Origin: Botryllus schlosseri
Lineage: Eukaryota
NCBI GenBank assembly: GCA_051294905.1
Contig: CM119372.1
Coordinates: 21,764,001 to 21,828,000 of the forward strand
Length of the DNA: 64,000 bases
Direction: 5' to 3'
Part shown: in pieces, positions 1 through 54,701 of the stretch
How the letters are laid out: the number at the start of each line of letters is the position of its first letter
Position numbering within the stretch: position 1 is the first letter of the stretch
The notes under the pieces: model-generated
Seen by the model: the letters and a program-made list of their open reading frames with translations, nothing else
Database searches by the model: none
Told to the model about the DNA's origin: nothing
Position numbers and translations under genes: made by a program

Positions 1-244
1 GACACGACCGACGCGAGCGTACACTTCTTCTTTGTCTGTGTGTCCTTGCGGACGACATCAATGGCTGCTCTGTTATTCTCAAGCACGATTCCCGGATTGA
101 AGGATCGCTGAGCAGATCGCAGTCTGAAGAATTGTAGTTTTCGGCGTAAACGTCTTCTTCGAAATATTTTGCGTTCGCATATCTTATCATGGAAGCAACA
201 AAAATCGCCAGCACCAATGTCGACGGCATGAATGAGTATTTCAT
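1..244 (-). CDS. IL-17-like cytokine copy A, 5' part of coding exon 1 (runs off the window start)
   Basis: ATG at 244 reads MKYSFMPSTLVLAIFVASMIRYANAKYFEEDVYAENYNSSDCDLLSDPSIRESCLRITEQPLMSSARTHRQRRSVRSRRSC with no stop. It is clearly homologous to exon 1 of copies B, C and D, and has a hydrophobic signal peptide ending in ANA. Confidence 0.88.
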   Translation of the reverse strand, partial: MKYSFMPSTLVLAIFVASMIRYANAKYFEEDVYAENYNSSDCDLLSDPSIRESCLRITEQPLMSSARTHRQRRSVRSRRSC

Positions 245-380
245 TTCGAAAATAAAGCCTATACTTGTCGAGCTTCAGTGGAATGTGGACCAAATATACC
301 TATACAATATAATCGAGATTGTATAGATAGTATATTCGGATAAGGAGTGAACGTATATCAGTTCGAGGCCTGATTCGTAA

Positions 381-398
381 CTTATATAGGGATTTCGC
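381..398 (-). promoter_or_regulatory. TATA box (TATATAAG, 381-388) abutting a kB-like decamer (GGGATTTCGC, 389-398), copy A
   Basis: About 140 bp upstream of the ATG. The equivalent position carries a TATA-like sequence in B (21411-21420), C (31598-31605) and D (53854-53861). Confidence 0.5.
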
Positions 399-766
399 TT
401 TCTACGTAATTGTTCTTAGGGTGCTTTGCATATAATTTCATAAAGTCAGTTGCGTTGTACGTTGTACCAGTAACATTCCGTTCACTGCAAAAGTAATTAC
501 ATCTTTATTCAATTCAATTTGAAATGTTTAATTTTTCATTATCTCTTTGCAGATATGCTTGCGCATATTGAAATAGCATTGATAGCATCTAAATACAGAT
601 ACATGTTTGCTTGTGTATATGACGTAGGTGATGATGTATTTCTATTGACATATAGTTGTATGCTATCGCAACAATACCCCTACACGTGGAGTAGATAAGA
701 AAATTCCTGATGTGACATCAGTGATGTCTACTCTACTATACTCAAATAGGATAGTACAGTGTGTTG

Positions 767-13527: not shown

Positions 13528-14810
13528 CAGCACCGTAACTGCCGCACCCCAAACCCCCCAATTGGGGGGGGGGGGGGCGAGATCGAAGGAGGCCCAAAAT
13601 TATTTCGTGAATTAGCATAAATCATAGAGTATTTTTTGAAAATTTATGCAATTTTTTCAAAATTTTTTCACGCTGCGCGCGAATTCAAGTTGCCATTTAT
13701 CTGCATTATTGGGTATTAGGCCATTACCGAGCCACGGCTCACCAAGAAACACAATCAAGTTTTAGGCCATATAACTTGCGACTCCAAGAAGTGTGCCAGA
13801 ACTATCGGCAGCGAGAAAACCTTGGCCGAAAAGGTCTATGTCCTTATGCTGACCAAAGACTTCGCTATATATACAAAGTACATATAGGTTTAATTGTCAA
13901 TAGGCGCCTAAATGACTGGCGCCGAATGTTCCTGTCTTTGCAATCTGAACCTCACAAGATAAATACCATCCCGCTTGGAAAAATTTTATGCCAGTGAAGA
14001 AATACCAATTTGAAATCGTGTGCGTCTCTTAGTTTAGAAGCCTACGTTTGGGCGATTCTATATTTTTTGATATAGCAGACTGGAAGTCACGAAATAACAT
14101 CATGTAACGAAGTCATATTTACGGGTCACCCCGGACGTAGATGTTTAATTATTATTTACGGGCCCTCCCGTTTTCAAGACACTTCACTCAGCTCTACCGG
14201 TAAATCTAATTACGTGAGTAGAGAGGACAATAAATTGATAGCATAATATATATGCAATCGCCGATCTGATTTGACCGATTTTATCATAAATTATCGAAAA
14301 TTTTCGCGCCTTTCGCTGGCTCACAATACAGTGCAGATGATTTCGTGACAAACGCGAACAACGTGATGGGGTGGGGGGTCGTTTCATCACCCTATGGTAG
14401 CCCAAGACCCACGTTTGTTGGGGCCTGACGAGGTGCTGTTTCGTTCCTGCCGAGAGGTATACGCCCGAAGATGTTCAATTATTATTAAGTGGTCCTACCT
14501 TTTCAAACACACCTCACTCAGCTCCATACCGGCAAATCTGATTACGTGAGCAGAGCGAGAAGATAAAAATTGATAACAATATATATGCTATTCCCGATCA
14601 TACTGCCCGATTCAGTCATGAATTTTAGAAATTTCCCGCGCTTTGGCGACAAAAGTTGATTCACTAAATAAACTCCCAACGAATATGAAAAATAGCGGTA
14701 AACAGGATATCGCCGGAGGGGGGTCTGAAGTTCGGTCCATAACCCAATGGGGGGCCCAAGAACAAAGTTTTTTTTTTGGGGGGGGCTGATGAAGTGCTGT
14801 TACGGCCCTG
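13528..14810. mobile_element. hAT-type element (CAGGGCCGTAAC-type ends), copy 1
   Basis: Ends CAGCACCGTAAC / GTTACGGCCCTG. TSD GTTGCCAG / GTTTCCAG. Highly similar to 38729-40345. Confidence 0.88.
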
Positions 14811-15909
14811 GTTTCCAGTCCCTTTTATGGACGGTTCTAGATAACAATCTGCTGACTATCTCAATATGCTCGCGGAAGCTGCAGAGTAAAGGTACACGGC
14901 ACCTCATCAATGTGAACTAAACCTCATCAAAACAGACTCTGTGAAACTATTACCAGGACTTAGATTTGCATCATGGCTAGTTTAAGCAATATTGTCATCC
15001 GAAATATCAATAATATAGGTGCTAGAAAAGGTACTATGCTTATGATATTGAAGAATTTGAAAGTATGGAATATGTATCAAGTATGGTATGGAACAATGTT
15101 GGTATGGTATGGTAAATTGCAAGTATGGTATGGAGAGAGTAAGGCAAGTATGGAGTATGGAAAATTCTCGTTCCATACCATACCATACCATGCCCTGATC
15201 ATAACAGTCACAGTTTGACTAATGAACGAGCCTTATTGCCTACAACCAATGATGATCAAAACAAACGTGTTAAAATGACATATCATATGCATAAGTTGAG
15301 TGTGCGTCTTCGCCTCCAGGGATCCTCCGAGACTATGGATCAGGAAAGTCGGGGGGTTCCCGGTAACAAAAGTGTACTTCTAGTCTTAGTTACCGTTGCG
15401 AGTATTACAAAGTGAGTGGTTCTAGTCCTAGTTGCGGATTTCGAGAAGTGAATAGTTCTATACCTATTACTAATTGCGCATTTTGAAAATCCAGAAGTTT
15501 GTACAAGTCTGCGTTAGAGCCATGGTTTGTGCCAATTCCGTTGTTTGCGAATAACGGCGTTACCAGCAAAGTGTCGACATGATGGATGGATCACATAATG
15601 TACAGGACTATTATGTATACTATAGGATGATAAAGCATTTTAGTCAAGAACAAAGATATTATGATATCACATTGAAATCGGAGACGTGTTATCGTGCATG
15701 AATATTGCATAAGCGCATAGCACAGTGCGTGTTACCGCCTTCCAATATAGGTGGTGTTATAATCTTCAGACTTTATGCTTATCTAATGGCGGAAGTTCGA
15801 AATTTCAAAACCAAACTAAACAGACAAAAAGTGAAGAATGAATTTGCAAAAATATAAATATTCTGAGAAAGATATAAAAAATCATAAAATATATATATTA
15901 AAAACAGTT

Positions 15910-16062
15910 TCAGGGAACAACACAGGAACTCTTTCGGTGGTGACTTTGCATATACTGGGCGTACATTGCGAATAATAACGTATCGCGCCTTTCCGCCACT
16001 TCAGCACTATCATGGACGGTGGACGCGTAGATTTCAGTGCTTTTAAGACTTGACATCGGATA
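15910..16062 (-). pseudogene. IL-17-like copy B, 3' part of exon 2 (disrupted)
   Basis: Aligns to D exon 2 (PMSSLKSTEIYAS...VLKWRKGAIR..SQCTPSICKVTTERVPV..VP*). It carries a 7-bp duplication (TGGACGG, ~16013-16026) and a 13-bp deletion between CACA repeats that removes the terminal C-T-C motif. Confidence 0.9.
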
Positions 16063-16943
16063 TAGTCCTGTAGAATTTTCGGTCAACCTAGAAAAAACTC
16101 TTTTAAAGACGTATTATATACCGTTGGAAAGATATTTTTATCAGCTTTTCAATGATGGGTTTTGTCACTTTTTTACTTTGGGGAAAAAAAGTTATGACCA
16201 AAAACGTGCCAGGGGATAAAGCACTATTTTGCCTAACAATAAAATATAATTATAAGCTAAAATACGATACCTTCGTATCAGAATACAACACCATAAATTG
16301 GAATATCACCCCCAGTAAAGCAAACTAACAATCGAACAGCAAAACAATGAAACATAACTTTATGTAAGAGGTATTTATCATACGTCAAGGGGGCAAAAGT
16401 TGACCGAGACGGAGATAACACTGGTTTACAAATTTCGAACAAAAATTAGGGTCAAAAATTTCAATGATTGATTTAGGGTAATTTATGGTTGCTAAATTTG
16501 ATTCTGTCCTAATAATTTCTCCATCACGTCAGATTTTGTCCGTATCAAATTTTCTCATTTTCATAAATTAATCAAATTTCAGCTTTCGTTAGTGACATCA
16601 CGATTAGCATACAGTAGCAAAACTTCAAATATTGTTATTGAAATCATCTATCATGAAACATGGGTTGTTGTAATGCAGAATGAGTGAGTTTTCGGTGAAC
16701 TTGGCTACAGTGATTCTCTATCATCGTTCAATCAGAAGCTCTTTTCGACACATAAAATTACACTGGTAAACAAATTCAACAACGCACACCAAATACCATA
16801 TTGGAACAGAGGCAGAGATGTTTTTAAATGGTATCGAGGCTTTTTGTTTGTGTTTTGCAATATTAAACGCCAATTCTATATACAAAAAGCTTTACTTTTT
16901 TGGCGGTTTCTGATTTGCCGTAATATTTTAATATGAAATTGAG

Positions 16944-17784
16944 CAGTGGTTTTCAACCTTGTTGTATTCGCGGACCCCTTTTGGACCGTCACGGACCCCC
17001 GCGGAGCCCACGAAGTTCAAGTTCCAATTTAGCTCAATTATCGTACAATCGTCATCTGTCATGTGCAAATGATAACTGTAGGCTAGTGATAAACCGCAAC
17101 AAAATTATTTTTCTTGAAAATAACAGCATTCTATGTATGCAGAAATCAGGTTGACTTTTATTATTTCGAAGCTAATTATTCAACTGCTTTTTTTGAAATA
17201 CGTGGTCGTGTCTTTAAAATCTGCGCCTTCGATTTCATATCAACGAGTGCTGAAAATCCATTAAGGCAAAGAAAGGTGGTGGCGAATGTAACAATAGGGC
17301 ATAAAGCTTCCGACGACACATTTGGGTATGATCGCAACAATGATGACACCAAAATTGACAAACGATTTTTTTATTGAACATATAACGTCAAGCCTGTTAA
17401 TTTATATCTAGCAGCTCACCTTGGAGTTATTAGGGGAAATGGTTATGTAGGCCTATATCACAGGCGAAAACGGATTTTGGCGAACATTACGAAGTCTTCG
17501 TGATTGACTGTACTAATCCAACCATTTATTTTTTACACAATGCCCAACAAAACACGTTTATACAGCCAAATATTTGTATCAGTGGGCTATTGGCAATTTA
17601 GCAACTAAAATGAGTCCACACAGCAGGATATTCCATCTCAGACGGCCTTCCTGTTGACCTGAGTTCTACTGCAATGAAGCGAAACTGCAGCCTCGTGATT
17701 TTCCTAATTTTAAAAATATGAATTAGGTTATCAACTATTTTTTTGAATTTAGAGGCTTCGCAGACCCCCGGTTGAGAACCACTG
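16944..17784. mobile_element. hAT MITE nested in the Academ-like element
   Basis: Ends CAGTGGTTTTCAACC / GGTTGAGAACCACTG. Degenerate TSD AAATTGAG / AACTAGAG. Related sequence at ~45440-46170. Confidence 0.75.
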
Positions 17785-19201
17785 AACTAGAGATTGTAAA
17801 AGTGATTGGTGTTGCTAGAGGTAGCACAGGTAACGCCCTATATTTTCTACTCAATTAACATTATAAGTAGTAATTTCTAAGACACGTGAAAACTACTTCA
17901 GGTGGCAGAAATATCTAAGTAGGCTATATTTGGTCGGGGGGAGGGTGGTTACATACTTTCGACAGTTAGTCGGAGGTGGCTACATACGAAATCGCAACAT
18001 GTATCTTCTCGGCTAACGCAAAATGTTTATAATAACACAATACCCATGCATTGGTAGAATATTCGAAAATATATTCAGTTACCGTGCTTTAGGGGCTGTT
18101 AAGGCTACTATATTTAAGAAATCATATGCAGTCAACATCATCGAGGAGCGGAGCTTTGTTTGGAATACATTCGTGTTAAAATGAATAACTGGGTGCAGTA
18201 CCAAATTCAATGTTTGGCAGATATCTCCATGACATTCCCATGTTGATTTACTATAGTCACACAAAGCACTAAAACAATACCCAATACATTAAATTTCCCG
18301 TATTGCCAACCACAGATGGGAATTCGGATTGCGTACATCTGATTCGAAGCACATGGCATGAGCCCGACCGCGATGGCTGTTATAACAACCTTGATTTGAC
18401 CCCGACTATACCACATGCAAATAGTATATATATATATATATGCGATTGAAGCGCAAAATATTTCCAATAGTAAAATCTCAACCAGGAAATAGCGACCGAA
18501 CTTTGATCTCGTACCAGGACCGTAACTGCCGCATCCCAAATCGTCCAATTGAGGGTCCTGAGCTCGAAGGGTGCCCGAAATTATGTCGGTGAATGAACAT
18601 AAATTATTTATACATCTCTTATTGACAATTTATGAAACTCTTTTCAATTTCTTTCGCGCTGGACGGGATTTCATGTTGCCAAATTTTTGATTATTGAGTA
18701 CCCTTCCCCCACGAAAAAAGCATGATTTATAGAAAATAAAAATAGGCATTGCGACTTTGACCATTACCACGCCGCGATGCACAAAAACATACGAAGTATT
18801 TGCCAATATAGTAATCTGAAAAGTGTGCCAATAGATCGCCTGCGAGAAAACCTTTGCCGAAAAGGATTGCCCTTATGTTGACCGTGAACTTCGAAATAAA
18901 TATCAGCCTATCTAATTGTCCATAGCTGCCTAAATGGCTCGTGTCTAATTATTCTATCGTGGCAATCTGAACCCGACAGGTCAAATAACATTTCTCAGAG
19001 AAAAATCATTTGCAAGTGAAGAAATACCAATTTTTCTATAAATCCACCACTAACATTTCTTGGATCTCGCATTGTTTCCCAATAAATTACGGCATGATGT
19101 GTGGATGTACGTAATATGGTCATTTTCTTAATTTTTCTGGAAAGTTGCGATCAGTGTTTCACAATCCAGTATCAATGAATGACCAATTATAGTGTCCAAA
19201 G

Positions 19202-19630
19202 TAGGGTTGCATTTAAAAGAAACACTGTTGTAAAACAATATGTTTAAAAAATATTTTAAACAAAAGCTATATTAAAAAAAACAAAATTGATTTTTTTAAA
19301 TTATAAAATTATGCCATAATTGTGTAAATACTCTCCAAAATCATGTTGTATGAGCACACGGACAATTACCACCCAATTTAGCCGACGTATATCGTTATGG
19401 GATGGATGAAAGTTGGAACCCTCAAAATAGTCGGTTCAACAGTTGTAGTACAGATATTTCTTCAAAGAGGCTATATTTACCCTATATTTTCAATAGTCAA
19501 TTTCAATCCATGACGTCACAATTGAATATTCGTGACGTCATGGTTTAAAAACAAAAAAACATGTTTTGAATTAGGTCCTTCTTTTAAACATGTTTGTTTT
19601 TAATTGATTTTTGTTTTAAATGCAACTCTA
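19202..19630. mobile_element. MITE with an 8-bp TSD, nested in the Academ-like element
   Basis: TIRs TAGGGTTGCATTTAAAA / TTTTAAATGCAACTCTA. Perfect TSD GTCCAAAG. Confidence 0.85.
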
Positions 19631-20169
19631 GTCCAAAGGGTGTGTGGTACTATCACTCTCGCAGAAATAAGCTCCAATGGGACACATTGAATCTCCAGTA
19701 CGAAAGCCTTTTCTACCCTTAACGCAAATTGCTGTTTCTTTTTGACTAAGCACTATCTAAAAAAACAAGCAAGGAAAATGAGACGGACCATAGTAGATAA
19801 ACAATAACATAATGAAGTTATAACGAACAACGACAGCTCTACTTGCGCCCCCCCCCATATCCCCCTGTCCTGCTCACTCTTACTCCCTGAAACAGATATA
19901 TAATTATATTTTTGTTTTCATTTACTCCTTTTGCATCTATATCCTGCTTTTCTGTTGATAATTCATTAGTTTCTAGCCTTTTGTTCATATTTTTATGTTA
20001 ATTTTTCCCGAATTTCAATTTTTACCCCTTGGCACGTTTTTGGTCATAACTTTTTTTCCCCAAGGTAAAAAAAGTGACAAAACCTATCATTGAAAAGCTG
20101 GTATATAGTACGTCTTTATAAGAATTTTTTCTAGGTTGACCCATTTTTAGACCAAATTCTACAGGACTA

Positions 20170-20236
20170 ATACCTCCCAAAGGGATTAAGACAGGTCTTG
20201 CAAAGACATTTGGCAACAGGAAGATGATGAGGATAC
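20170..20236 (-). pseudogene. IL-17-like copy B, 5' part of exon 2
   Basis: Acceptor ...CTTCACAG|G, then YPHHLPVAKCLCKTCLNPFGRY, running directly into an in-frame TAG that forms the transposon end. Confidence 0.9.
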
Positions 20237-20929
20237 CTGTGAAGTTGGCAAAGTTACATCAGGATTAACAATCACAGATGAGATGCAGAAACATCATATC
20301 AATATGTATATAACCCAGAAATAGCTAGAGCAGTTAATTTTGATACTCGAGGGATGTTGAAGTAATGCCAAAATTTTCTACTCATTTACAATTAGTTATT
20401 ATTAGTGATTTCCAAAACATGTAAACCTACTTCGTGAAGAAGTAGAAAACGATCGCGCTGTGTATATTGTGTCAACGTCCTGCAGACTTTATTTTAAGTC
20501 GCCGGTGACGAAATTTCAAGAAGCGCCTTCGAACGCAAAAGGACACAATGTATTCAATTGTAAACTTCTATTCTGGTACCGCGATATATATGGTCAGAAA
20601 ACATAGTCCGGTTGTGATAACATTTTCACTCGCAGTGATGGAAATCTATCCGAACAATACGTTCTGCTTGGCAAAGTACAAGCGTGGCACGGAAGTATTT
20701 TAGCTTCATGAAAGTAGACCGGAATTATTTTAAAAACATGCATGCTTGAGTAAGTATTGGAAATATACACTTAACCTATATTTCAATCACCCGAACATAG
20801 TGGAATTACGTCGTTAGTGAACACCTCTGTGCATTAGTTCATATTTACGATGTCGGTGGTCGATGGAAAGTAGAAAGATAGTGTTTTGTACAGCATTGAC
20901 GATGTAACTAAACAGGTGGGAGATCCTAC

Positions 20930-21280
20930 CTATTTCGACGTTTCTGCACGCAGATCGCCCAGGGAGATATACTCCTTTTGTTTTCGTCAGTAATCGTATC
21001 TTGAATATCTTGGAATTTCGGACATCGAGCAGGAAATGACCGACGCGAGTCAAGACTTCTTCTTTCTCTGTGTCTCCTTACGGACGTCATCAACGGCTGC
21101 TCTGTTATTCTCAAGCAAGATTCCCGGATTGAAGAATCGCTGAGCAGATCGCAGTCTGAAGAATTGAGATTTTCGGCGTAAACGTCCGCGTCGAAATATT
21201 GTGCGTTCGCATATCTTATTGAGGAAGCAACAAAAATCGCCAACATCAAAGCCGACGGAATCGATGAGTATATATTTCAT
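20930..21280 (-). pseudogene. IL-17-like copy B, exon 1
   Basis: The ancestral ATG (21280) is put out of frame by a 4-bp TATA insertion. The downstream frame reads MLAIFVASSIRYANA...RRHRERRS...RSISPWAICVQKRRNR. Donor AG|GTAGGA at 20930/20929, and a 693-bp intron similar to that of D. Confidence 0.9.
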
Positions 21281-21967
21281 TTCGAGAAAATCCATCTAGT
21301 AGATCATTGGAGGAATGATGAATAATTATACCTATACGATAGCCGATATTATATAGATAGTATATTAGGATCAGGAGTGAATGTATATCAGTCCGTGGCC
21401 TGAATTGTCACATATATATAGTGATATCGTTCTGTACGTAATTTTTCTGAGGGTACTTTGCATACGATTACATAGTTACAGTTGCGTTGTACGATCTACT
21501 AGTAACGTTCCGTTCGTTGCAAAATCAATGTATTCTCATTGCAGATATCCAATATTCAAATAGCATTGAAATCAATCTAAAAATACGTCATTGGTTACGC
21601 ATAACGTAGGTGATGATGTATATTTGTATGCTCTCGCAACAAAGCCCTGTGCGTGGAGCAGATAAGGACATTCCTGACGTCTACTCTGCAACTCCACGAG
21701 TATATTTGAAATAAATATACTCCTGTGGCTTAATAGGATTGTACAGTTCATTGTATATCTAATAAAATAATCATATAGTATTCCAAAAATAGTTCTTCAA
21801 TGAATGCTCTTCCAACATTGTTGCACCAAATATAGTTGTTGTCCGGTATATATAGAATTCATTCAAGCAATATCGTTCTTGATACACCAAGCAAATGTTT
21901 AGGCTCTGTTATCAGCTTGGTTATTGGTTATTGATTGAAGGAATTTCGAATACGGGAGCGCGAGAAC

Positions 21968-21977
21968 GGAAATCCCC
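21968..21977 (-). promoter_or_regulatory. NF-kB consensus site GGGGATTTCC upstream of copy B
   Basis: Canonical kB decamer ~690 bp upstream of the ATG, at the position homologous to the sites in A and D. Confidence 0.5.
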
Positions 21978-22342
21978 TAACTTTTATTGTGAGCGTGTCA
22001 TATGAGAGAAAATAATAAACGTGAGAGACTATTTTGTTCATTGTACAGTATGTATATTGTGCAACATACAATACAGTATACGTAAGTACACTGACACAGC
22101 CTGCGACAGTGCTTTGCGACAGATCAGTCCAAAGGAATAATGCCTTGCATGTACTTGGGCCCATGGCTCTGCAACCTGCGGCTCTTTCATGATCCCGGGG
22201 CGGCTCTTTGCATGTTTGAAGCAAAATAATTATTGATTGTATGAATAATTATATTATAAAATAATCTATTTCTCTTTGGATATTTGGTATTTTCTCATGA
22301 AAGTTTCCTTATTTCAAGCTGTTGGGAAGCAGACAAACCAGG

Positions 22343-29611: not shown

Positions 29612-30457
29612 CAGTGGTTGCCAACCTTTTTCAACTCATCGCCTCCTTATCAACCTCGACGCAAATTTTCGCCCCTCCCCCCTCCCATATTTACCGATCC
29701 GAAAAAGAGGACATAGAATGGGGAAATTTATTCACCCAAGTCTAATCCCTGGTGAATTTACTAAAGCTCGCCTTTACAGACCCTCTTGTATGATTTTAAT
29801 GGAACGAATATAGTTTATGCGTTTGTATTTTCACGGATGTGTAGATGTTTAGTGTATTGTATCATATCAATTTATTTCAACTTCTCGAGGCTTCGTATTA
29901 GATCCTCTATTTCGGCTGATAATAACAGATTGTAGAATGTAGCTATACAGTTATACTCACATATTTTATTAGCAGTATGCTTACAACGTGTGCGTGATCG
30001 ACGCAACGCAATTTTGCATGTACATTTAACTTTGTATTCGTTATTCGATTCAAGATAAATGGCCAATTAATCTGTTTTGACACAGCTAGCAAAATGTAAT
30101 GACTTTTAATGATCACTCATACTTCGAAACTTCAATTTGACTTGAATTGTGACTTGACTCGTGACTGGACTTGACTTGACTCGAGTCACGTTAAAAAAAC
30201 GAGTGACTTGACTAGGCTCGAGTCAAAATGTGCAATGACTTGAGATGACTCGTGATTCGAAGGTAGTGAATTGATCCCAACACTGTCATGTGCAGAATAA
30301 GTCGTCTTCACGTCCATTTTTTGACCGTGTTAAATAAATATATCTCCCTGGACGTTTTAAGATTTTCGTCCCCCAGTCGCTCCCTTTGGTATTTTCGCCT
30401 GCTTGTTTCTCAAAATCGCCCCCTGGTGAGCGATATCACCCACGTTGGGAACCACTG
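29612..30457. mobile_element. hAT MITE (GGGGCG-rich family) just downstream of copy C
   Basis: Ends CAGTGGTTGCCAAC / GTTGGGAACCACTG. TSD GTTTAAAC / GTTCAAAC. Inverted relative to 42589-43834 and 51038-51407. Internal GACTT/GACTC repeat patch at 30130-30280. Confidence 0.82.
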
Positions 30458-30582
30458 GTTCAAACTGTAGAAACTGCTGACAATATTGAAACAATTCCCA
30501 TACCTTGGAAATTCGACTAATTCCGAGTGTACGATGTCATATATAATGTTCAGATCAAAGTAAAATGGCATAGAGTAAAATT

Positions 30583-30588
30583 TTTATT
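30583..30588 (-). promoter_or_regulatory. polyadenylation signal AATAAA of copy C
   Basis: AATAAA on the minus strand ~120 nt after the stop codon. Confidence 0.5.
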
Positions 30589-30708: not shown

Positions 30709-30931
30709 TCAAGGAACTACGCATGTGCAGCCCACAGGAATTCTCTCGGTCGCAAGTTCACATGTACTAGTCGTGCATTGCGAGAAATGGTGAATGGAAC
30801 CTCTTGGCCACTTCAGCACGGTCACGGATGCATAGATTTCCGCGCTCTTGAGACTGGGCGTCGGGTGCCCGGAATGAGCATCGAGACAGTTCCGGCAAAG
30901 GCATTTGGCGATGGAGAGATGGCGAGGATAC
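30709..30931 (-). CDS. IL-17-like cytokine copy C, coding exon 2 (cystine-knot domain)
   Basis: Acceptor CTTATCCAG|G, then (R)YPRHLSIAKCLCRNCLDAHSGHPTPSLKSAEIYASVTVLKWPRGSIHHFSQCTTSTCELATERIPVGCTCVVP*. 223 nt, phase-compatible with exon 1. Not present in the ORF track. Confidence 0.93.
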
Positions 30932-31159
30932 CTGGATAAGTCGTGGGCATTGTATCGATTTCAGAAATGATCACTAAGGCAATAACCGCAGTCTATATAT
31001 TTACTTTTGGCAGTACCTTTTAGGTTTGAATCAAGGTGAAATTTGAATGAGATTTGTCTTCGATAGTTCATATCTTTGTCAGCAAAGTAATGCTGTTCAA
31101 TACTTCGGATAATTATTTATTCTGCAACTAGATGTAGATACGGTAATTACACATCTTAC

Positions 31160-31497
31160 CTGTTACGTCGTGTCTGTAAGCAGGTTGCCCAGGGAGATAT
31201 GCTTCTTTTACTTTCTTCTGTGACGGTGTTAGGAATATCTTGAAATGTTGGGCATTCGACATCACAAGATAGACGCGACCCAACACTTCTTTTATGTCTC
31301 CTCGCTGACGTCAGTAATGGTTGGTCAGTAATTCTCAAGCAAGACTCCCGGAGCTGTGCGTCATTGAGCAGATCACAGTCTGACGAGTTGTTCTTTACGG
31401 CAATGTCTGCATTTATGCGTCTTGCGTTCGCCTCGTACATCGAAGATGAAATTAAAATCGTCAGGGTCAAAATTGACAGATTGAATGAATATTTCAT
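31160..31497 (-). CDS. IL-17-like cytokine copy C, coding exon 1 (spliced product 186 aa, intact)
   Basis: ATG at 31497: MKYSFNLSILTLTILISSSMYEANA (signal peptide)...RRHKRS...KRSISPWATCLQTRRNR. Donor AG|GTAAGA, and a 228-bp GT-AG phase-2 intron (30932-31159). Confidence 0.93.
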
Positions 31498-38728: not shown

Positions 38729-40345
38729 CAGCACCGTAACTGCCGCACCCCAAACCCCCCAATTGGGGGGGGGCGAGCTCGATGGGGGCCAAAATTATTT
38801 CGTGAATTAGCATAAATCATAGAGTATTTTTTTTGAAAATTTATGCAATTTTTCAAAAATTTTTCTCGCTGCGCGCGAATTCACGTAGCCGTTTATCTTT
38901 CCTATTGGGTATTGGGCCATTACCGCGCCACGACCCACCAAGACATACAATCAAGTTTTAGGCCATATAACATGCGACTCCAAGAAGTGTGCCAGAACGA
39001 TTGGCAGCGAGAAACGCTTGGCCGAAAAGGTCTATGCCCTTATGCAGATCAAAGACTTCGCTATATATACAAAATACATATAGGTTAAATTGTCCATAGG
39101 CGCCTAAATGACTGGCGCCGAATGTTCCTGTCTTTGCAATCTGAACCTCACAAGACAAATACCATCCCGCTGGGAAAAATTTTATGCCAGTGCAGAAATA
39201 CCAATTTTAAATCGTGTGCTTCTCTTAGTTTAGAAGCCTACGTTTGGGCGGTTCTATATTTTTTGATATAGCAGACTTGAAGTCACGAAATAACATCATG
39301 TAACGAAGTCATATCAACGGTTCCGCCCGCCCGAAGATGTTTAATCATTATTTACGGGCCCTCCCGTTTTGAAGACACTCCACTCAGCTCTACCGGTAAA
39401 TCTAATTACGTGAGTAGAGAGGACAATAAATTGATAGCATATTATATATGCAGTCGCCGATCTGATTTACCGATTTTATCATAAATTATCGAAAATTTTC
39501 GCGCTTGGCGCTGGTTCTCAATACCGTACGGGTAATTTCGTGACAAACGCGAACAACGTGATGGGGGGGGGGTCGTTTAATCACCCTATGGGAGCCCAAC
39601 ACCCACGTTTTGGGGGCCTGACGAGGTGCTGTTTCGTTCCTGCCAACGGGTATACGCCCGAAGATGTTTAATTATTATTGAGTGGTCCTACCTTTTCAAA
39701 CACACCTCACTCAGCTCTACCGGCAAATCTGATTACGTGAGTAGAGAGGACAATATATTGATAGTATATTATATATGCAGTCGCCGATCTGATTGACCGA
39801 TTTTTTCATAAATTAGCGAAAATTTTCGCGCTTGGCGCTGGCTCACTATACAGTACGGGTAATTTCGTGACAAACGTGAACAACGTGATGGAGGGGGTCG
39901 TTTTATCACCCTATGGGAGCCCAAGACCCACGTTTTTGGGGGCCTGACGAGGTGCTGTTTTGTTCCTGCCAACGGGTATACGCCCGAAGGTGTTTAATTA
40001 TTATTGAGTGGTCCTACCTTTTTAAACACACCTCACTCAGCTCTACCGGCAAATCTGATTACGTGAGCAGAGAGAAGATAAAAATTGATAACAATATATG
40101 CAATTCCCGATCATACTGACCGATGAAATCATGAATTCTAGAAATTTTGCGCGCTTCGCTCGCTTAGGCGACAAAAGCTGACTCACTAAAGAAACTCCCA
40201 ATGAATAGGATGAATAGTGGTGAACAGTGTATCGCCGGAGGGGGGTCTGGGGGGCGAAGCCCCCCAGACGTTCGATCTATAACACTATGGGGGGGCCAAT
40301 GCCAAAGTTTTGGGGGGGGACTGACGAAGTGCTGTTACGGCCCTG
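38729..40345. mobile_element. hAT-type element (CAGGGCCGTAAC-type ends), copy 2, with an internal ~326-bp tandem repeat
   Basis: Perfect TSD CTCTCGAT. Repeat units start at ~39330, ~39657 and ~39983 (partial). Confidence 0.9.
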
Positions 40346-47639: not shown

Positions 47640-48622
47640 TACGGTCGGACTTGCGTTCGCCTCGGTTATCGACGATAGAATGATTGAATATTGACAGCGT
47701 TAAAATGGACGGATTGGGTGAATATATTATTTCGGGGAATACTTGTGAAGACACTGAATGTTCTGTATAGAATGGTCCTATGTATTATATATTTGGATCA
47801 ACCGTTAGCATATACAGAAATTCTGTGATTTGCTTCTTAAACAGTGAAATTCCATCCCATTAGTTATTCAGTCATCGAACTTTCGAAAAATCCCCCGTAG
47901 TAGCTTTCGTGGCATTTTGTATATGTCTTTACCAACTGAAGTTGCGCTTCCCACGGGTTTGTAATATTTGCACTATTTTATTCGCATCAAAATGGACGGA
48001 AAGTATAGGAAATATAGTTAGGACAACCATTCTAAGTATAGTACTGTCTTGTCTATGTGACGTAGGTTTATTCCAGTCATGTTCAGATGCAAACATCATG
48101 TAAAAACATGCAGAAGGGGTCAGGACATTCTTGGTAATTAAACTATGTTGATCTTAGGAATTCCTCGCATTTTATTACACGGGAACTATACATAGTGCTA
48201 TCCTTCCAAATTTGTTACGCGGCAAAATGGCAATTGACCATCCAAATGGGTGCAATTTTTGAAGATATATGTATGTATATATGTATAAGTATGAAAAGTA
48301 TTCAGTTTTGCATAAAAACTGTTTGATAATAGTAGAAGTAGCCTATAGCCTAGAGAAACATAACAACTTTACTAATTAGTACAAGTAGGCAGAAACTACT
48401 ACCAAGAGTATTCCAAAATGTAGAATAACTTCGTTACTGTCCGCCTGTGGCTTCAGTTTGAAGATGAGATACGACTTTAAAGTAAAATAAATCCTCCAAT
48501 TTGAAAACCTACCGACGTTAACCATTTTCAATATTGTATGGTTACGAAATGATCTGACGAATCATTGAACTAAAATTGACTTGGAATCTTCCTGTTGAAA
48601 ACTGTTCCTAGTTCGTTTAAGT

Positions 48623-52434: not shown

Positions 52435-52657
52435 TCAAGGAACAACACATGTACAACTCACAGGAACTCTTTCAGTGGTGACTTTGCATATACCAGGCGT
52501 GCATTGCGAATAATGACGTATCGCGCCTTTCCGCCACTTCAGCACTACCATGGACGCGTAGACTTCAGTGCTTTTCAGACTTGACATCGGGTGCCTCGAA
52601 AGAGGATTGAGACAGGTCTTGCACAGACATTTGGCAACGGGCAGACGAGGAGGATAT
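52435..52657 (-). pseudogene. IL-17-like copy D, exon 2 (reading frame intact)
   Basis: Acceptor CTTCACCAG|A, then (R)YPPRLPVAKCLCKTCLNPLSRHPMSSLKSTEVYASMVVLKWRKGAIRHYSQCTPGICKVTTERVPVSCTCVVP*. 223 nt, as in copy C. Confidence 0.85.
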
Positions 52658-53369
52658 CTGGTGAAGTTATAACGGTAAAATGAGATTAACCAATCCCAGA
52701 CGAGATACATAAAACATTATAGCATTATCGATGACCCAGAAGTGACCAAGGTAAGTGATGTAGAAGTAATGTCGTAAATTTATACCCACTTACAAGTATT
52801 ATTAGCGATCTTCAAGACACGTAAACCTATACGTCATGTAGAAGTCTAGAAGACAATGACACTTGAATTAAAGTATTCACTGTGCATTGTGCCAACGTGT
52901 CGCAGACTTTTGTTCGTAAGTCAACGGTAAGTGTGGTGACATCTTTCGAAATTGCAAGATGATTATTTGCGGCGGATGCAAAAGACCACAATGGATTCAA
53001 TTGCTAAACTGATTCTGTTTTCACAATAAATAGTCAACAAACACCGTTCGGTTCTGATAACATTTTCGCCCACAAGAGTGATGCAAATCTTTCCAAACAA
53101 ATCTTTCTACTTGACCAAATGAAAAAGTGACACGTAAGTATTTTAGCTTCATTGAAGCAGACCGGATGTATTTTTAAAACATGTCTACTTGAGTAAGTAG
53201 CGGAAATAGACACGTAACCCATTTGAATCATTTATACACAGTGGACTTACTTATAGTTATTGGCCATCTTTGTGCATGAGATCATAGTTATGATACCAGT
53301 GGTAGATGGAAAGTCTAGTGTTTAGTACAAAAATAACGATATAACAAAAAAAAAAGTGGGGGATCCTAC

Positions 53370-53721
53370 CTATTTCGGCGTTTCTGCATACAGGTTGTCC
53401 ATGGGGATATACTCCTTTTATTTTCGTCAATTACCTTATCTTTATTATCTCGGAAGTTCGGACATCGAACACGACACGACCGACGCGAACGAACTCAAAC
53501 TTCTTCTTCCTCTGTATCTCCTTGCGGACGTCATCAACGGCTGTTCTGTTATTCTCAAGCACGATTCCCGGATTGAAGCATCGCTGAGCATATCACAGTC
53601 TGAAGAGTTGTACTTTTCGGCGTGAACGTCTTCGTCGAAATATTTTGCGTTCGCATATCTTATCATTAAAGCAACAAAAATCGCCAGTATCAATGTCGAG
53701 GGCATTTAATGAGTATTTCAT
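53370..53721 (-). pseudogene. IL-17-like copy D, exon 1 with two frameshifts
   Basis: A +1 insertion lies between ATG 53721 and ATG 53705. A 4-bp duplication (GAACGAAC, 53487-53494) gives a stop at 53445, and the shifted frame continues RRSCRVRCPNFRDNKDKVIDENKRSISPWTTCMQKRRNR. Donor AG|GTAGGA, 712-bp intron. Confidence 0.82.
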
Positions 53722-54444
53722 TTCGAAAATAAAGCCTACTTGTTGAGCATCAGTGGAATGGTGACAAATTATACCTATACAATATATTCGAGATTATATA
53801 GATAGTACATTCGGATCAGGTGAACGTATATCAGCTCGAGGCCTGATTTGTCACTTATATAGTGATATCGCTTTGTACGTAATTTTTCTTAGGGTGATTT
53901 GCATATAATCTCATAAATTCAGTTGCGTTGTACGTTGTACTTGTAAGATTCCGTTCACTGCAAAAGTAATATTATCTTTATTGAATTCAATTGAATATGT
54001 TTAATCTTTCATTATCTCGTTGCAGATATGCTTGCGCATATTGAAATAGCATTGAGAACAATATAAATATGGATACATGCTCGTGTATATGACGTGATAA
54101 TGATGAGGTGAGGATGTATATCTGTTGACATAGTTGTATGCTATCGCAACAAGTCCCCTACACGTGGAGTAGATAAAGAGATTCTTGATGTTTACTCTAC
54201 TATACTCAAATAGGATTATACGGAACATTGTATATCTCATATAATCATATAGTATTCCCAAAATAGTTGTACAAGGGATGGTGTGACAACATTATCTCGG
54301 CTTAAACTAAATATAGCCGTTATCCCGTATACATTGAATTAATTCAACTAATATCTTTGTTGATACACAAAGCAAATGTATAGACTTTGTTACAGCTTAT
54401 TGGTTATTCATTAAATGAATCTTAAATGCGGCGACCGCAGGTAC

Positions 54445-54454
54445 GGAAGTCCCC
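54445..54454 (-). promoter_or_regulatory. NF-kB consensus site GGGGACTTCC upstream of copy D
   Basis: Identical to the site at 3934-3943, ~725 bp upstream of the ATG. Confidence 0.5.
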
Positions 54455-54701
54455 TGTGTTTAGCGTGTCATATGTGAGGAAATGTCGAACGTGAGAAACT
54501 AGTATTTACAGATTGTACACTGTGCAATGTATGTATATTGTACAACATACAGTACAATGTACACTGCACAGACAAATGAATCCAAAGGAATAATATCATG
54601 CATTTACTATGTTTCGACTTTCCATTCTCGAAATTGCATGCTGCGAATTGATTTTCAGACCTTAATAGGACGCAAAGATTATTAACGAGTACAGTAGCTA
54701 C

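What the first reader, a model, noticed from the sequence alone, without database searches (positions are those of the whole stretch)
30709..31497. IL-17-like cytokines with a conserved two-Cys pro-segment and a furin site: a candidate protease-activated pro-IL-17
Seen: in all four paralogues the signal peptide (ending ANA) is followed by a ~45-50-aa segment (NSSDCDLLxDxxxRESCLRITxQPL, with an N-glycosylation sequon and 2 Cys). This ends in a polybasic R-x-[KR]-R|S motif (A RQRR, B RERR, C RHKR, D RGRR) ahead of the RSISPW/RYP/CxCxxC/CTC domain. The segment is strongly conserved even in divergent copy C, whose intron and promoter no longer align with the others. Known: R-x-[KR]-R is the furin consensus. 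Convertase-removed prodomains are typical of other cystine-knot ligands (NGF, TGF-beta, PDGF, insect PTTH) but are not a standard feature of vertebrate IL-17A-F. Inference: these are secreted as pro-cytokines and matured by a convertase.
Basis: partly seen in the sequence, partly recalled or inferred. Interest (0 to 1): 0.8.

Follow-up and report, generated by a model that had tools for sequence, protein, structure and literature searches.

The report
Sea-squirt IL-17 with furin-cuttable cap
A two-exon gene, likely from a sea squirt, encodes an interleukin-17 immune cytokine whose front end carries a conserved two-cysteine cap followed by a furin-type cutting motif; in a model of a relative the cap is predicted to cover the receptor-binding surface, so the cytokine may be made in a masked form that a protease would unmask.

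Summary
The motifs are real; 'four paralogues' is weaker than stated. Copy C (31497-30709, minus strand) is the only complete intact copy: 186 aa, Pfam IL17 1.5e-14 on exon 2. A is cut by the window edge. B and D are frameshifted, and B holds a 4.1-kb insertion. The C-x11-C segment is the best-conserved part of the gene and is shared with two Styela clava IL-17s, which lack the furin motif. A furin consensus sits at the matching place in 7 of 15 vertebrate IL-17C-like hits. New here: in a predicted dimer of the Styela relative the segment docks on the knot (0.72; best control 0.01), over residues matching human IL-17A receptor sites 1 and 2. Best reading (0.45): a masked pro-cytokine unmasked by a convertase. 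Main rival (0.32): a permanent cap that the receptor displaces uncut, as in IL-17A/F. Cleavage, splicing and expression are not shown (no reads on the gene in 4 RNA runs). A convertase-site IL-17 precursor is already described (crustacean CFSH). This scan found the pro-piece/furin idea before on other DNA of this genome (e1-7882785). New variant of a known kind; interest 0.55.

The parts
31160..31497 (-). Copy C exon 1 (aa 1-113: signal peptide, cap, furin motif, CP linker, RSISPW strand)
   Evidence: GT donor at 31159
31426..31497 (-). Predicted signal peptide of C (aa 1-24, ends ANA)
   Evidence: hydropathy peak 2.5 at aa 7-17; SignalP not run
31288..31425 (-). N-terminal segment ('pro-segment', aa 25-70)
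31381..31392 (-). Overlapping N-glycosylation sequons N36-N-S and N37-S-S
   Evidence: sequence
31339..31377 (-). C-x11-C core (Cys41-Cys53), predicted helix-turn-helix; shared with Styela XP_039267381 and XP_039268281
31288..31299 (-). RHKR furin-type consensus (aa 67-70), followed by Ser
   Evidence: unchanged in contigs of two other runs that cover it
30932..31159 (-). 228-nt phase-2 GT-AG intron at R|YP (inferred, not seen spliced)
   Evidence: same position in B and D; no spliced read or contig
30709..30931 (-). Copy C exon 2: IL-17 cystine-knot domain (aa 114-186 and stop)
   Evidence: Pfam PF06083 E 1.5e-14, 54.6 bits vs cut-off 24
30583..30588 (-). AATAAA, possible polyadenylation signal of C
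1..244 (-). Copy A, 81 open codons, cut by the window edge; RQRR|S and a second RSRR|S
20930..21280 (-). Copy B exon 1; frameshift in the signal-peptide region; RERR|S
20170..20236 (-). Copy B exon 2, 5' piece
16063..20169 (.). 4107-nt insertion in B exon 2 with about 160-nt imperfect terminal inverted repeats and a 3-bp flanking duplication; no long ORF
15900..16062 (-). Copy B exon 2, 3' piece, with two further indels and loss of the CTC motif (start approximate)
53370..53721 (-). Copy D exon 1; frameshifts in the signal region and just after RGRR|S
52435..52657 (-). Copy D exon 2, open, IL-17 domain
   Evidence: Pfam E 4.5e-12
47650..47875 (-). Fifth, decayed fragment: upstream region and signal-peptide part, 71% like C

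Best explanation
Copy C encodes a chordate-type IL-17 with a conserved two-cysteine N-terminal segment and an RHKR motif behind it; the segment likely folds as a small helical cap that is predicted to cover the receptor-binding face of the dimer, and a furin-type convertase would cut at RHKR|S so that the cap can leave and the cytokine becomes active or more active. Shown: the reading frame, the IL-17 domain, the motifs and their conservation. Inferred and untested: dimerisation, cleavage, release of the cap, and any gain of activity.
For: IL-17 domain with the two knot serines of tunicates and vertebrates (S101, S142). Cap under purifying selection, pN/pS 0.15, and aligned to Styela P0001 without gaps from Cys41 to Arg70 (E 2e-05). 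AlphaFold of P0001: helices 70-81, 85-96, 98-113, pLDDT 81-87 over the first two. Complex model, P0001 68-114 x2 on 126-242 x2: score 0.72, best of 3 controls 0.01, runs share at least 91% of contacts, partner pLDDT 71-72; the mark was reached by 51 of 78 solved and 2 of 108 mismatched microbial pairs, and 39 of 65 solved and 2 of 126 unrelated eukaryotic pairs; this job is unlike the calibration. Mapping the 26 interface residues by the alignment onto the IL-17A site table (PMC5566378 supplement; hand count): 4 of 7 mappable site-1 residues (the hydrophobic ones Y85, L122, F133, L135), 7 of 11 site-2, 0 of 9 site-3. The best contacts (L87, C91, I94 on Y166, P167, L204, C216, C221) are identical in C (L49, C53, I56; Y114, P115, L152, C165, C170). 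Listed contacts put C91 against Y166 and L204, not against the loop cysteines, and C79 is not listed, which fits a non-covalent cap that a cut could free. RHKR lies in coil with pLDDT under 50 in a model of C's exon-1 piece (mean pLDDT 54). The consensus survives a two-codon indel between C and A/B/D. 7 of 15 vertebrate IL-17C-like proteins have R-x-[KR]-R 6-9 residues before the CP cysteine, 0.43 expected from shuffles (related rows, not independent). Precedent: CFSH precursor with signal peptide, precursor-related peptide, KR site and IL-17 domain (PMC6056722).
Against: Both full-length Styela homologues keep the cap but have no R-x-[KR]-R, R-x-x-R or dibasic site in the 30 residues before the CP cysteine; P0001 reads KEKVR|G at the aligned place, so the cap is older and more widespread than the site. 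The docking model is of that uncleavable relative and of two pieces of one chain, which tend to pass; in it residues 103-104 and 106-107, next to the aligned site, touch the core, which could shield the site. In human IL-17A/F, N-terminal residues also block site 1 and are displaced by the receptor without a cut (PMC5566378). 8 of 15 vertebrate proteins lack the consensus. The motif arises in 6-13% of shuffles. The whole segment 25-70 is as conserved as the mature part (29/46 vs 70/115), unlike a disposable spacer. Only one intact gene in the window. No read fell on either exon in 4 RNA runs of the same species label, 3-13% of each run read.
Confidence: 0.45

Rival explanations
1. The segment is a permanent part of the mature cytokine, an enlarged version of the N-terminal 'skirt' of vertebrate IL-17A/F that shields site 1 and is pushed aside by the receptor. 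The basic stretch is an Arg-rich linker or matrix-binding patch; any cut there is incidental.
For: Cap kept and site absent in 2 of 2 full-length Styela homologues. Receptor-driven displacement of N-terminal residues is solved for IL-17A/F (PMC5566378). Segment as conserved as the mature part. Basic motifs also lie inside the knot domain of these Arg-rich genes. Motif in 6-13% of shuffles.
Against: Full consensus with P1' Ser in 4 of 4 copies across an indel; same register in 7 of 15 vertebrate IL-17C-like proteins; the folded cap covers more of the receptor face in the model (sites 1 and 2) than the few residues displaced in IL-17A/F; no sequence match of the cap to vertebrate N-termini.
Confidence: 0.32
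2. The protein is cut at RHKR but the cap stays attached, by tight packing or by disulfides from Cys41/Cys53 to the loop cysteines Cys165/Cys170, giving a two-chain cytokine; the cut then tunes stability, range or affinity, or a second trigger is needed as for latent TGF-beta.
For: [quoted passage not shown] The tunicate-type proteins gain a second N-terminal and a second loop cysteine together, and Polypterus IL-17C lacks both an N-terminal and the loop cysteine. The cut pieces stay docked with high confidence in the model.
Against: The 25 best contact pairs show no cap-cysteine to loop-cysteine pair; C216 and C221 pack on F82 and L87 instead. No coordinates were returned, so sulfur distances were not measured.
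Confidence: 0.16
3. The whole cluster is decaying, C included, and the motif has no present function.
For: B, D and a fifth fragment are broken; no RNA reads on C in 4 runs.
Against: IL-17 genes of Ciona are reported as LPS-inducible (PMC5465252), so silence in unchallenged samples is weak evidence.
Confidence: 0.07

Closest known systems
Styela clava XP_039267381 (242 aa) and XP_039268281 ('interleukin-17C-like', 221 aa)
   Same: IL-17 domain (39% and 33% to exon 2), C-x11-C segment with L-R-x-x-C-x-R, extra two-Cys loop before strand 4, CP motif; XP_039268281 also shares the Cys78/Cys106 pair.
   Different: No furin consensus; longer linkers between the segment and the CP cysteine (44 and 72 aa vs 29).
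Vertebrate IL-17C (e.g. Bombina XP_053550938, Ascaphus XP_075433296, Sorex XP_055992128)
   Same: Closest named vertebrate matches of the knot (33-46%); CLCxxC, RSISPW, CP motif; a polybasic R-x-[KR]-R just before the CP cysteine in 7 of 15 examined.
   Different: One N-terminal and one loop cysteine instead of two each; N-termini do not align with the cap by profile comparison. A knot tree does not place C inside IL-17C.
Human IL-17A, IL-17F, IL-25 (PDB 8dyf, 1jpy, 7uwj)
   Same: Same incomplete cystine knot; the Styela model matches them best (Foldseek E 2.7e-07; VIA Z 9.2, rmsd 2.7, 82 aligned). Site 1 is masked by N-terminal residues in the free cytokine (PMC5566378).
   Different: Masking residues are a short strand and coil displaced by the receptor, tied by an inter-chain disulfide; no pro-piece is described in the passages read.
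Crustacean female sex hormone (CFSH), an IL-17-domain preprohormone
   Same: Signal peptide, precursor-related peptide, basic cleavage site, IL-17 domain (PMC6056722, PMC9662296); binds an IL-17 receptor ectodomain in pulldown (PMC10604874).
   Different: Dibasic KR site, 33-aa precursor peptide, all eight cysteines in the mature part, neurohormone of decapods; no CFSH among the 28 hits to exon 2.
Convertase-matured cystine-knot ligands (NGF, TGF-beta, PTTH)
   Same: Related fold (PTTH Z 6.2, NGF Z 5.3); pro-piece removed at basic sites (established knowledge, recalled).
   Different: Complete three-disulfide knot, different receptors, much larger pro-domains in TGF-beta and NGF (recalled).

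Membership tests
IL-17 family (PF06083) | Pfam IL17 above the curated cut-off | tested here: met
   exon 2 of C 54.6 bits, of D 46.6 bits, cut-off 24; only family hit
IL-17 family (PF06083) | Type-2 knot of tunicates and vertebrates: four knot cysteines, serines in place of cysteines 1 and 4 | tested here: met
   C123, C128, C181, C183; S101 in SPW and S142 in the invariant Ser column; definition from PMC11087794 section 7
IL-17 family (PF06083) | IL-17-type fold | tested here: met
   on the Styela homologue as stand-in: best matches IL-17A and IL-25; C itself was not folded whole
IL-17 family (PF06083) | Signal peptide, secreted | tested here: inconclusive
   hydrophobic core and A-N-A end; no SignalP; h-region is Ser/Thr-rich in C
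IL-17 family (PF06083) | Dimer that binds a SEFIR-domain receptor | not testable with these tools
   needs protein work
Convertase-matured pro-cystine-knot ligand | R-x-[KR]-R between pro-piece and knot | tested here: met
   RHKR|S at 67-71; 4 of 4 copies
Convertase-matured pro-cystine-knot ligand | Site conserved among homologues that share the pro-piece | tested here: not met
   absent in 2 of 2 full-length Styela homologues; no closer full-length orthologue was found; unchanged in two other runs' contigs
Convertase-matured pro-cystine-knot ligand | Site exposed in a flexible linker | tested here: inconclusive
   coil, pLDDT under 50 in a core-less model of C; helix 98-113 partly touching the core in the Styela models
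Convertase-matured pro-cystine-knot ligand | Pro-piece not covalently tied to the mature part | tested here: inconclusive
Convertase-matured pro-cystine-knot ligand | Cleavage occurs and changes activity | not testable with these tools
   needs expression and assay
Vertebrate IL-17C orthologue | Groups with IL-17C in a tree | tested here: inconclusive
   C and D fall outside the 28-row IL-17C group (95/88); tunicate-type rows form one side at 79/69, not starred; 76 columns, long branches, no other IL-17 subtypes in the tree
CFSH | Decapod clade, KR site, eight cysteines in the mature hormone | tested here: inconclusive
   no CFSH among 28 hits; C has ten cysteines behind the site; no CFSH sequence was aligned
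PTTH/trunk | Complete knot, better match to PTTH than to IL-17 | tested here: not met
   knot serines present; VIA Z 9.2 for IL-17A vs 6.2 for PTTH; Pfam gives IL17 only

The most novel reading that the evidence does not exclude
Chordate IL-17s of this type, including many vertebrate IL-17C proteins, are latent pro-cytokines: an N-terminal cap occupies the receptor's tryptophan pocket and a furin-type cut just before the CP cysteine switches them on. IL-17 signalling would then have an unrecognised proteolytic control step.
Probability: 0.15. Interest if true: 0.85.

Novelty: new variant of a known kind. Interest (0 to 1): 0.55.

Why it matters
IL-17 cytokines are regarded as controlled mainly by transcription (recalled). 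A cap that masks the receptor sites and a convertase site behind it would add a post-translational switch. It would matter for ascidian work, where IL-17 is tied to allogeneic resorption in Botryllus and LPS responses in Ciona (PMC8398012, PMC5465252), because recombinant protein made uncut could be the weak form. The same motif in many vertebrate IL-17C proteins makes a cheap test available: express wild type and site mutant, sequence the N-terminus, measure signalling. If cleavage proves irrelevant, what remains is a tunicate-type helical elaboration of the IL-17 skirt, of structural interest only.

Tried and rejected
No whole genome is held, so family size in this genome was not counted. 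Word-index searches found no relative of exon 1 among proteins of 62-198 aa, none of exon 2 among longer proteins, and only the three Styela inputs with a 7-row profile. ESM Atlas on exon 1: best score 0.83, below the bar, not used. Metagenome contigs: none of 277 pattern matches confirmed. No RNA holder listed among 24 runs. Contigs of X6, X7 and X13 cross the intron unspliced and their run type is not on record, so they say nothing on splicing. Alignments A1 and A2 misplaced the exon-1 pieces and were not used for searches. Profile comparison of tunicate and IL-17C N-termini aligned only from the CP motif on: homology of the cap with vertebrate N-termini is by position only. No solved fold stands out for the cap (best Z 3.9); it was not folded and searched alone. 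My first idea, that the cap is disulfide-tied to the loop cysteines, was not supported by the contact list and is kept as a rival. PTTH/trunk identity rejected. My early note of a TA duplication at the insertion in B was wrong; it is a 3-bp duplication. Literature: searches listed no paper on convertase processing of a chordate IL-17; subscription journals are mostly not covered, and the original CFSH and Ciona IL-17 papers were not read. Supplements of PMC8353272 and PMC11087794 gave no tunicate sequences or cleavage terms; figures are not held.

Full report
The gene. On the minus strand, copy C runs from an ATG at 31497 through exon 1 (to 31160), a 228-nt phase-2 GT-AG intron and exon 2 (30931-30709), giving 186 aa with 12 cysteines. 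Exon 2 alone scores 54.6 bits on Pfam IL17 (E 1.5e-14, cut-off 24); exon 1 hits no family. The protein has S-P-W and a second knot serine (S101, S142), the type-2 knot that PMC11087794 (section 7 read) gives as the only type in tunicates and vertebrates. A full HMMER scan with exon 2 gave 28 hits: 3 named Styela clava proteins, 16 named vertebrate proteins (15 IL-17C or IL-17C-like, 1 lamprey) and 9 unnamed ones. The best hit is Styela XP_039267381 (P0001). The host is therefore likely an ascidian (inference; CpG observed/expected 1.08). The splice is inferred from signals and homology. Four RNA runs of the same species label gave no read on either exon, with 3-13% of each run read.

The paralogues. 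But only C is complete and intact in the window. A has 81 open codons up to the edge. B is out of frame from the conserved ATG, has a 4107-nt element with terminal inverted repeats in exon 2 and two more indels there. D is out of frame from the conserved ATG and shifts frame right after its RGRRS. A fifth decayed fragment lies at 47650-47875. A, B and D are 84-91% identical in exon 1, so the window holds two lineages, not four independent witnesses. The lesions were not checked against reads.

The segment. Residues 37-60 are 19/24 identical between C and each of A, B and D, with pN/pS 0.15, against 0.34 for exon 2 and 0.8-0.9 for the signal peptide (borders chosen afterwards). It is the most identical of 41 sliding windows, while the whole stretch 25-70 equals the mature part (29/46 vs 70/115, p 0.86). 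Both full-length Styela proteins share the C-x11-C spacing with invariant C, R, C, R, and P0001 aligns without gaps from Cys41 to Arg70. AlphaFold gives P0001 helices at 70-81, 85-96 and 98-113 (mean pLDDT 75.8, pTM 0.48) and gives C's exon-1 piece helices at aa 40-43 and 47-57 (mean pLDDT 54). So this is a conserved folded unit, not a spacer.

The furin motif. RHKR|S is a full consensus (furin rule: established knowledge; the R-X-K/R-R reference appears in PMC9662296's list). It survives a two-codon indel between C and A/B/D, and is unchanged in contigs of two other runs, one of which changes the Arg just before it to Met (single low-depth contigs). Against it: such a motif appears in 12.7% of shuffles of aa 25-82 and 5.9% of shuffles of the mature chain, and neither Styela protein has it; P0001 reads KEKVR|G at the same place. 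Of 15 vertebrate proteins with the region present, 7 have R-x-[KR]-R ending 6-9 residues before the CP cysteine, 0.43 expected; C's site ends 12 before Cys82. The 15 are 12 of the 16 named representatives (P0006, P0009, P0014, P0022 dropped for lacking the region) plus 3 cluster members (P0030 and P0032-P0035 left out as isoforms or partials); among representatives alone it is 6 of 12. The rows are related and not independent. A knot tree keeps C and D outside the IL-17C group but cannot resolve origins, so shared ancestry and convergence of the site both remain open.

Where the segment sits. The spliced protein is in no database searched, so P0001 served as stand-in. Two copies of its residues 68-114 were folded with two copies of 126-242: score 0.72 in three runs, best of three controls 0.01, at least 91% shared contacts, partner pLDDT 71-72. 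The mark was reached by 51 of 78 solved and 2 of 108 mismatched microbial pairs, and 39 of 65 solved and 2 of 126 unrelated eukaryotic pairs; this four-chain job is unlike the calibration, and pieces of one chain tend to pass. The interface holds 26 of 117 core residues. Using the phmmer alignment to human IL-17A and the site table in the supplement of PMC5566378 (read whole), I count by hand 4 of 7 mappable site-1 residues in it (Y85, L122, F133, L135; not E80, E83, R124), 7 of 11 site-2 residues and 0 of 9 site-3 residues. Y166 also equals IL-25 L101, a site-1 residue in PMC9477748 (section 7 read; numbering with an offset that fits Y92, L98, L101, Y106). The best-resolved pairs put I94, C91 and L87 on L204, F203, Y166, P167, C216 and C221; all but F203 are identical in C, though interface identity overall (10/23) is close to background (27/72). 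Exposed hydrophobic pockets attract any model partner, and the model may have learned this surface from receptor, peptide or antibody complexes; the unrelated controls did not dock with confidence.

Mechanism. The likeliest account (0.45) is a cap that masks the receptor face and a convertase cut at RHKR|S that lets it go. The main rival (0.32) is a permanent cap. PMC5566378 (passages) shows that site 1 of free IL-17A/F is already blocked by N-terminal residues that the receptor displaces with no cut, and the Styela proteins must work without the site. A third reading (0.16) is a cut but still attached two-chain form; in IL-17F the N-terminal extension is disulfide-linked to the loop of the other subunit (PMC10299014, passages), and tunicate-type proteins gain one N-terminal and one loop cysteine together. 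Decay of the whole cluster gets 0.07.

What is known. The fold is IL-17's (Foldseek E 2.7e-07; VIA Z 9.2, rmsd 2.7, 82 aligned to IL-17A; PTTH Z 6.2). Tandem arrays and pseudogenes are usual for invertebrate IL-17 (PMC5457136, PMC8353272; passages). A basic-site IL-17 precursor is described: crab CFSH has a 23-aa signal peptide, 33-aa precursor-related peptide, KR site and 167-aa mature hormone with an IL-17 domain (PMC6056722, passages; PMC9662296; PMC4888303; PMC10604874). In those passages the processing is a sequence prediction, and the isolation paper was not read. PMC7683804, PMC8398012 and PMC5465252 were seen as passages only. Six searches listed no paper on convertase processing of a chordate IL-17; coverage of subscription journals is poor.

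Earlier scan notes. e1-7882785 (same genome, 7.8 Mb away) reports three IL-17 genes with a pro-piece, a cutting motif and the IL-17C parallel; e1-9053661 reports a spliced, expressed IL-17 gene with the same closest Styela protein. I had the IL-17C count before seeing them; they are unchecked notes, not independent support.

Verdict. A real IL-17 gene, a real conserved cap, a real but lineage-patchy furin motif, and a predicted masking of the receptor sites. New variant of a known kind; interest 0.55.

Noticed in passing
P0002, P0011, P0015, P0017, P0018, P0019, P0029 (vertebrate IL-17C proteins): R-x-[KR]-R ends 6-9 residues before the CP cysteine in 7 of 15 IL-17C-like proteins (frogs, gecko, python, Tasmanian devil, shrew); absent in rays, lungfish, bichir, lampreys, squirrel and one python-cluster record. 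Human IL-17C not examined.
   Followed up: partly
window 16063-20169: 4107-nt non-autonomous DNA-transposon-like element with about 160-nt imperfect terminal inverted repeats starting TAGTCC and a 3-bp flanking duplication, inserted in exon 2 of copy B; longest stop-free frame 140 codons.
   Followed up: partly
copy C Cys78 and Cys106 (31264-31266, 31180-31182): These two cysteines co-occur: both in C, D and Styela P0028, both absent in P0001, suggesting an extra disulfide; broken copy B has lost the first.
   Followed up: partly
window 1-752, 20179-22081, 52599-54562: A, B and D are recent segmental copies that align through introns and upstream DNA (71-86% by blastn), while C aligns only in exons.
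   Followed up: partly
window 47650-47875: Fifth, decayed copy closest to C: upstream region and signal-peptide part only.
   Followed up: partly
window about 21970 (upstream of copy B): One NF-kB-like site GGGGATTTCC within 1 kb upstream of B; none by the same pattern upstream of A, C or D (no chance control).
   Followed up: no
window 30402-30460: A short dispersed repeat downstream of C draws all the RNA reads laid on this region (partial matches, 90-95% alike), a trap for false expression calls.
   Followed up: yes
window 13528-14810 and 38729-40345: A 1.1-kb repeat at about 90% identity with internal 326-nt tandem units; many other dispersed repeats fill the window, and no other long coding frame was seen.
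   Followed up: no
P0026 (Polypterus IL-17C): Lacks both the N-terminal cysteine and the loop cysteine but keeps the CP and middle CLC cysteines, suggesting CP-middle and N-terminal-loop pairings in IL-17C.
   Followed up: partly
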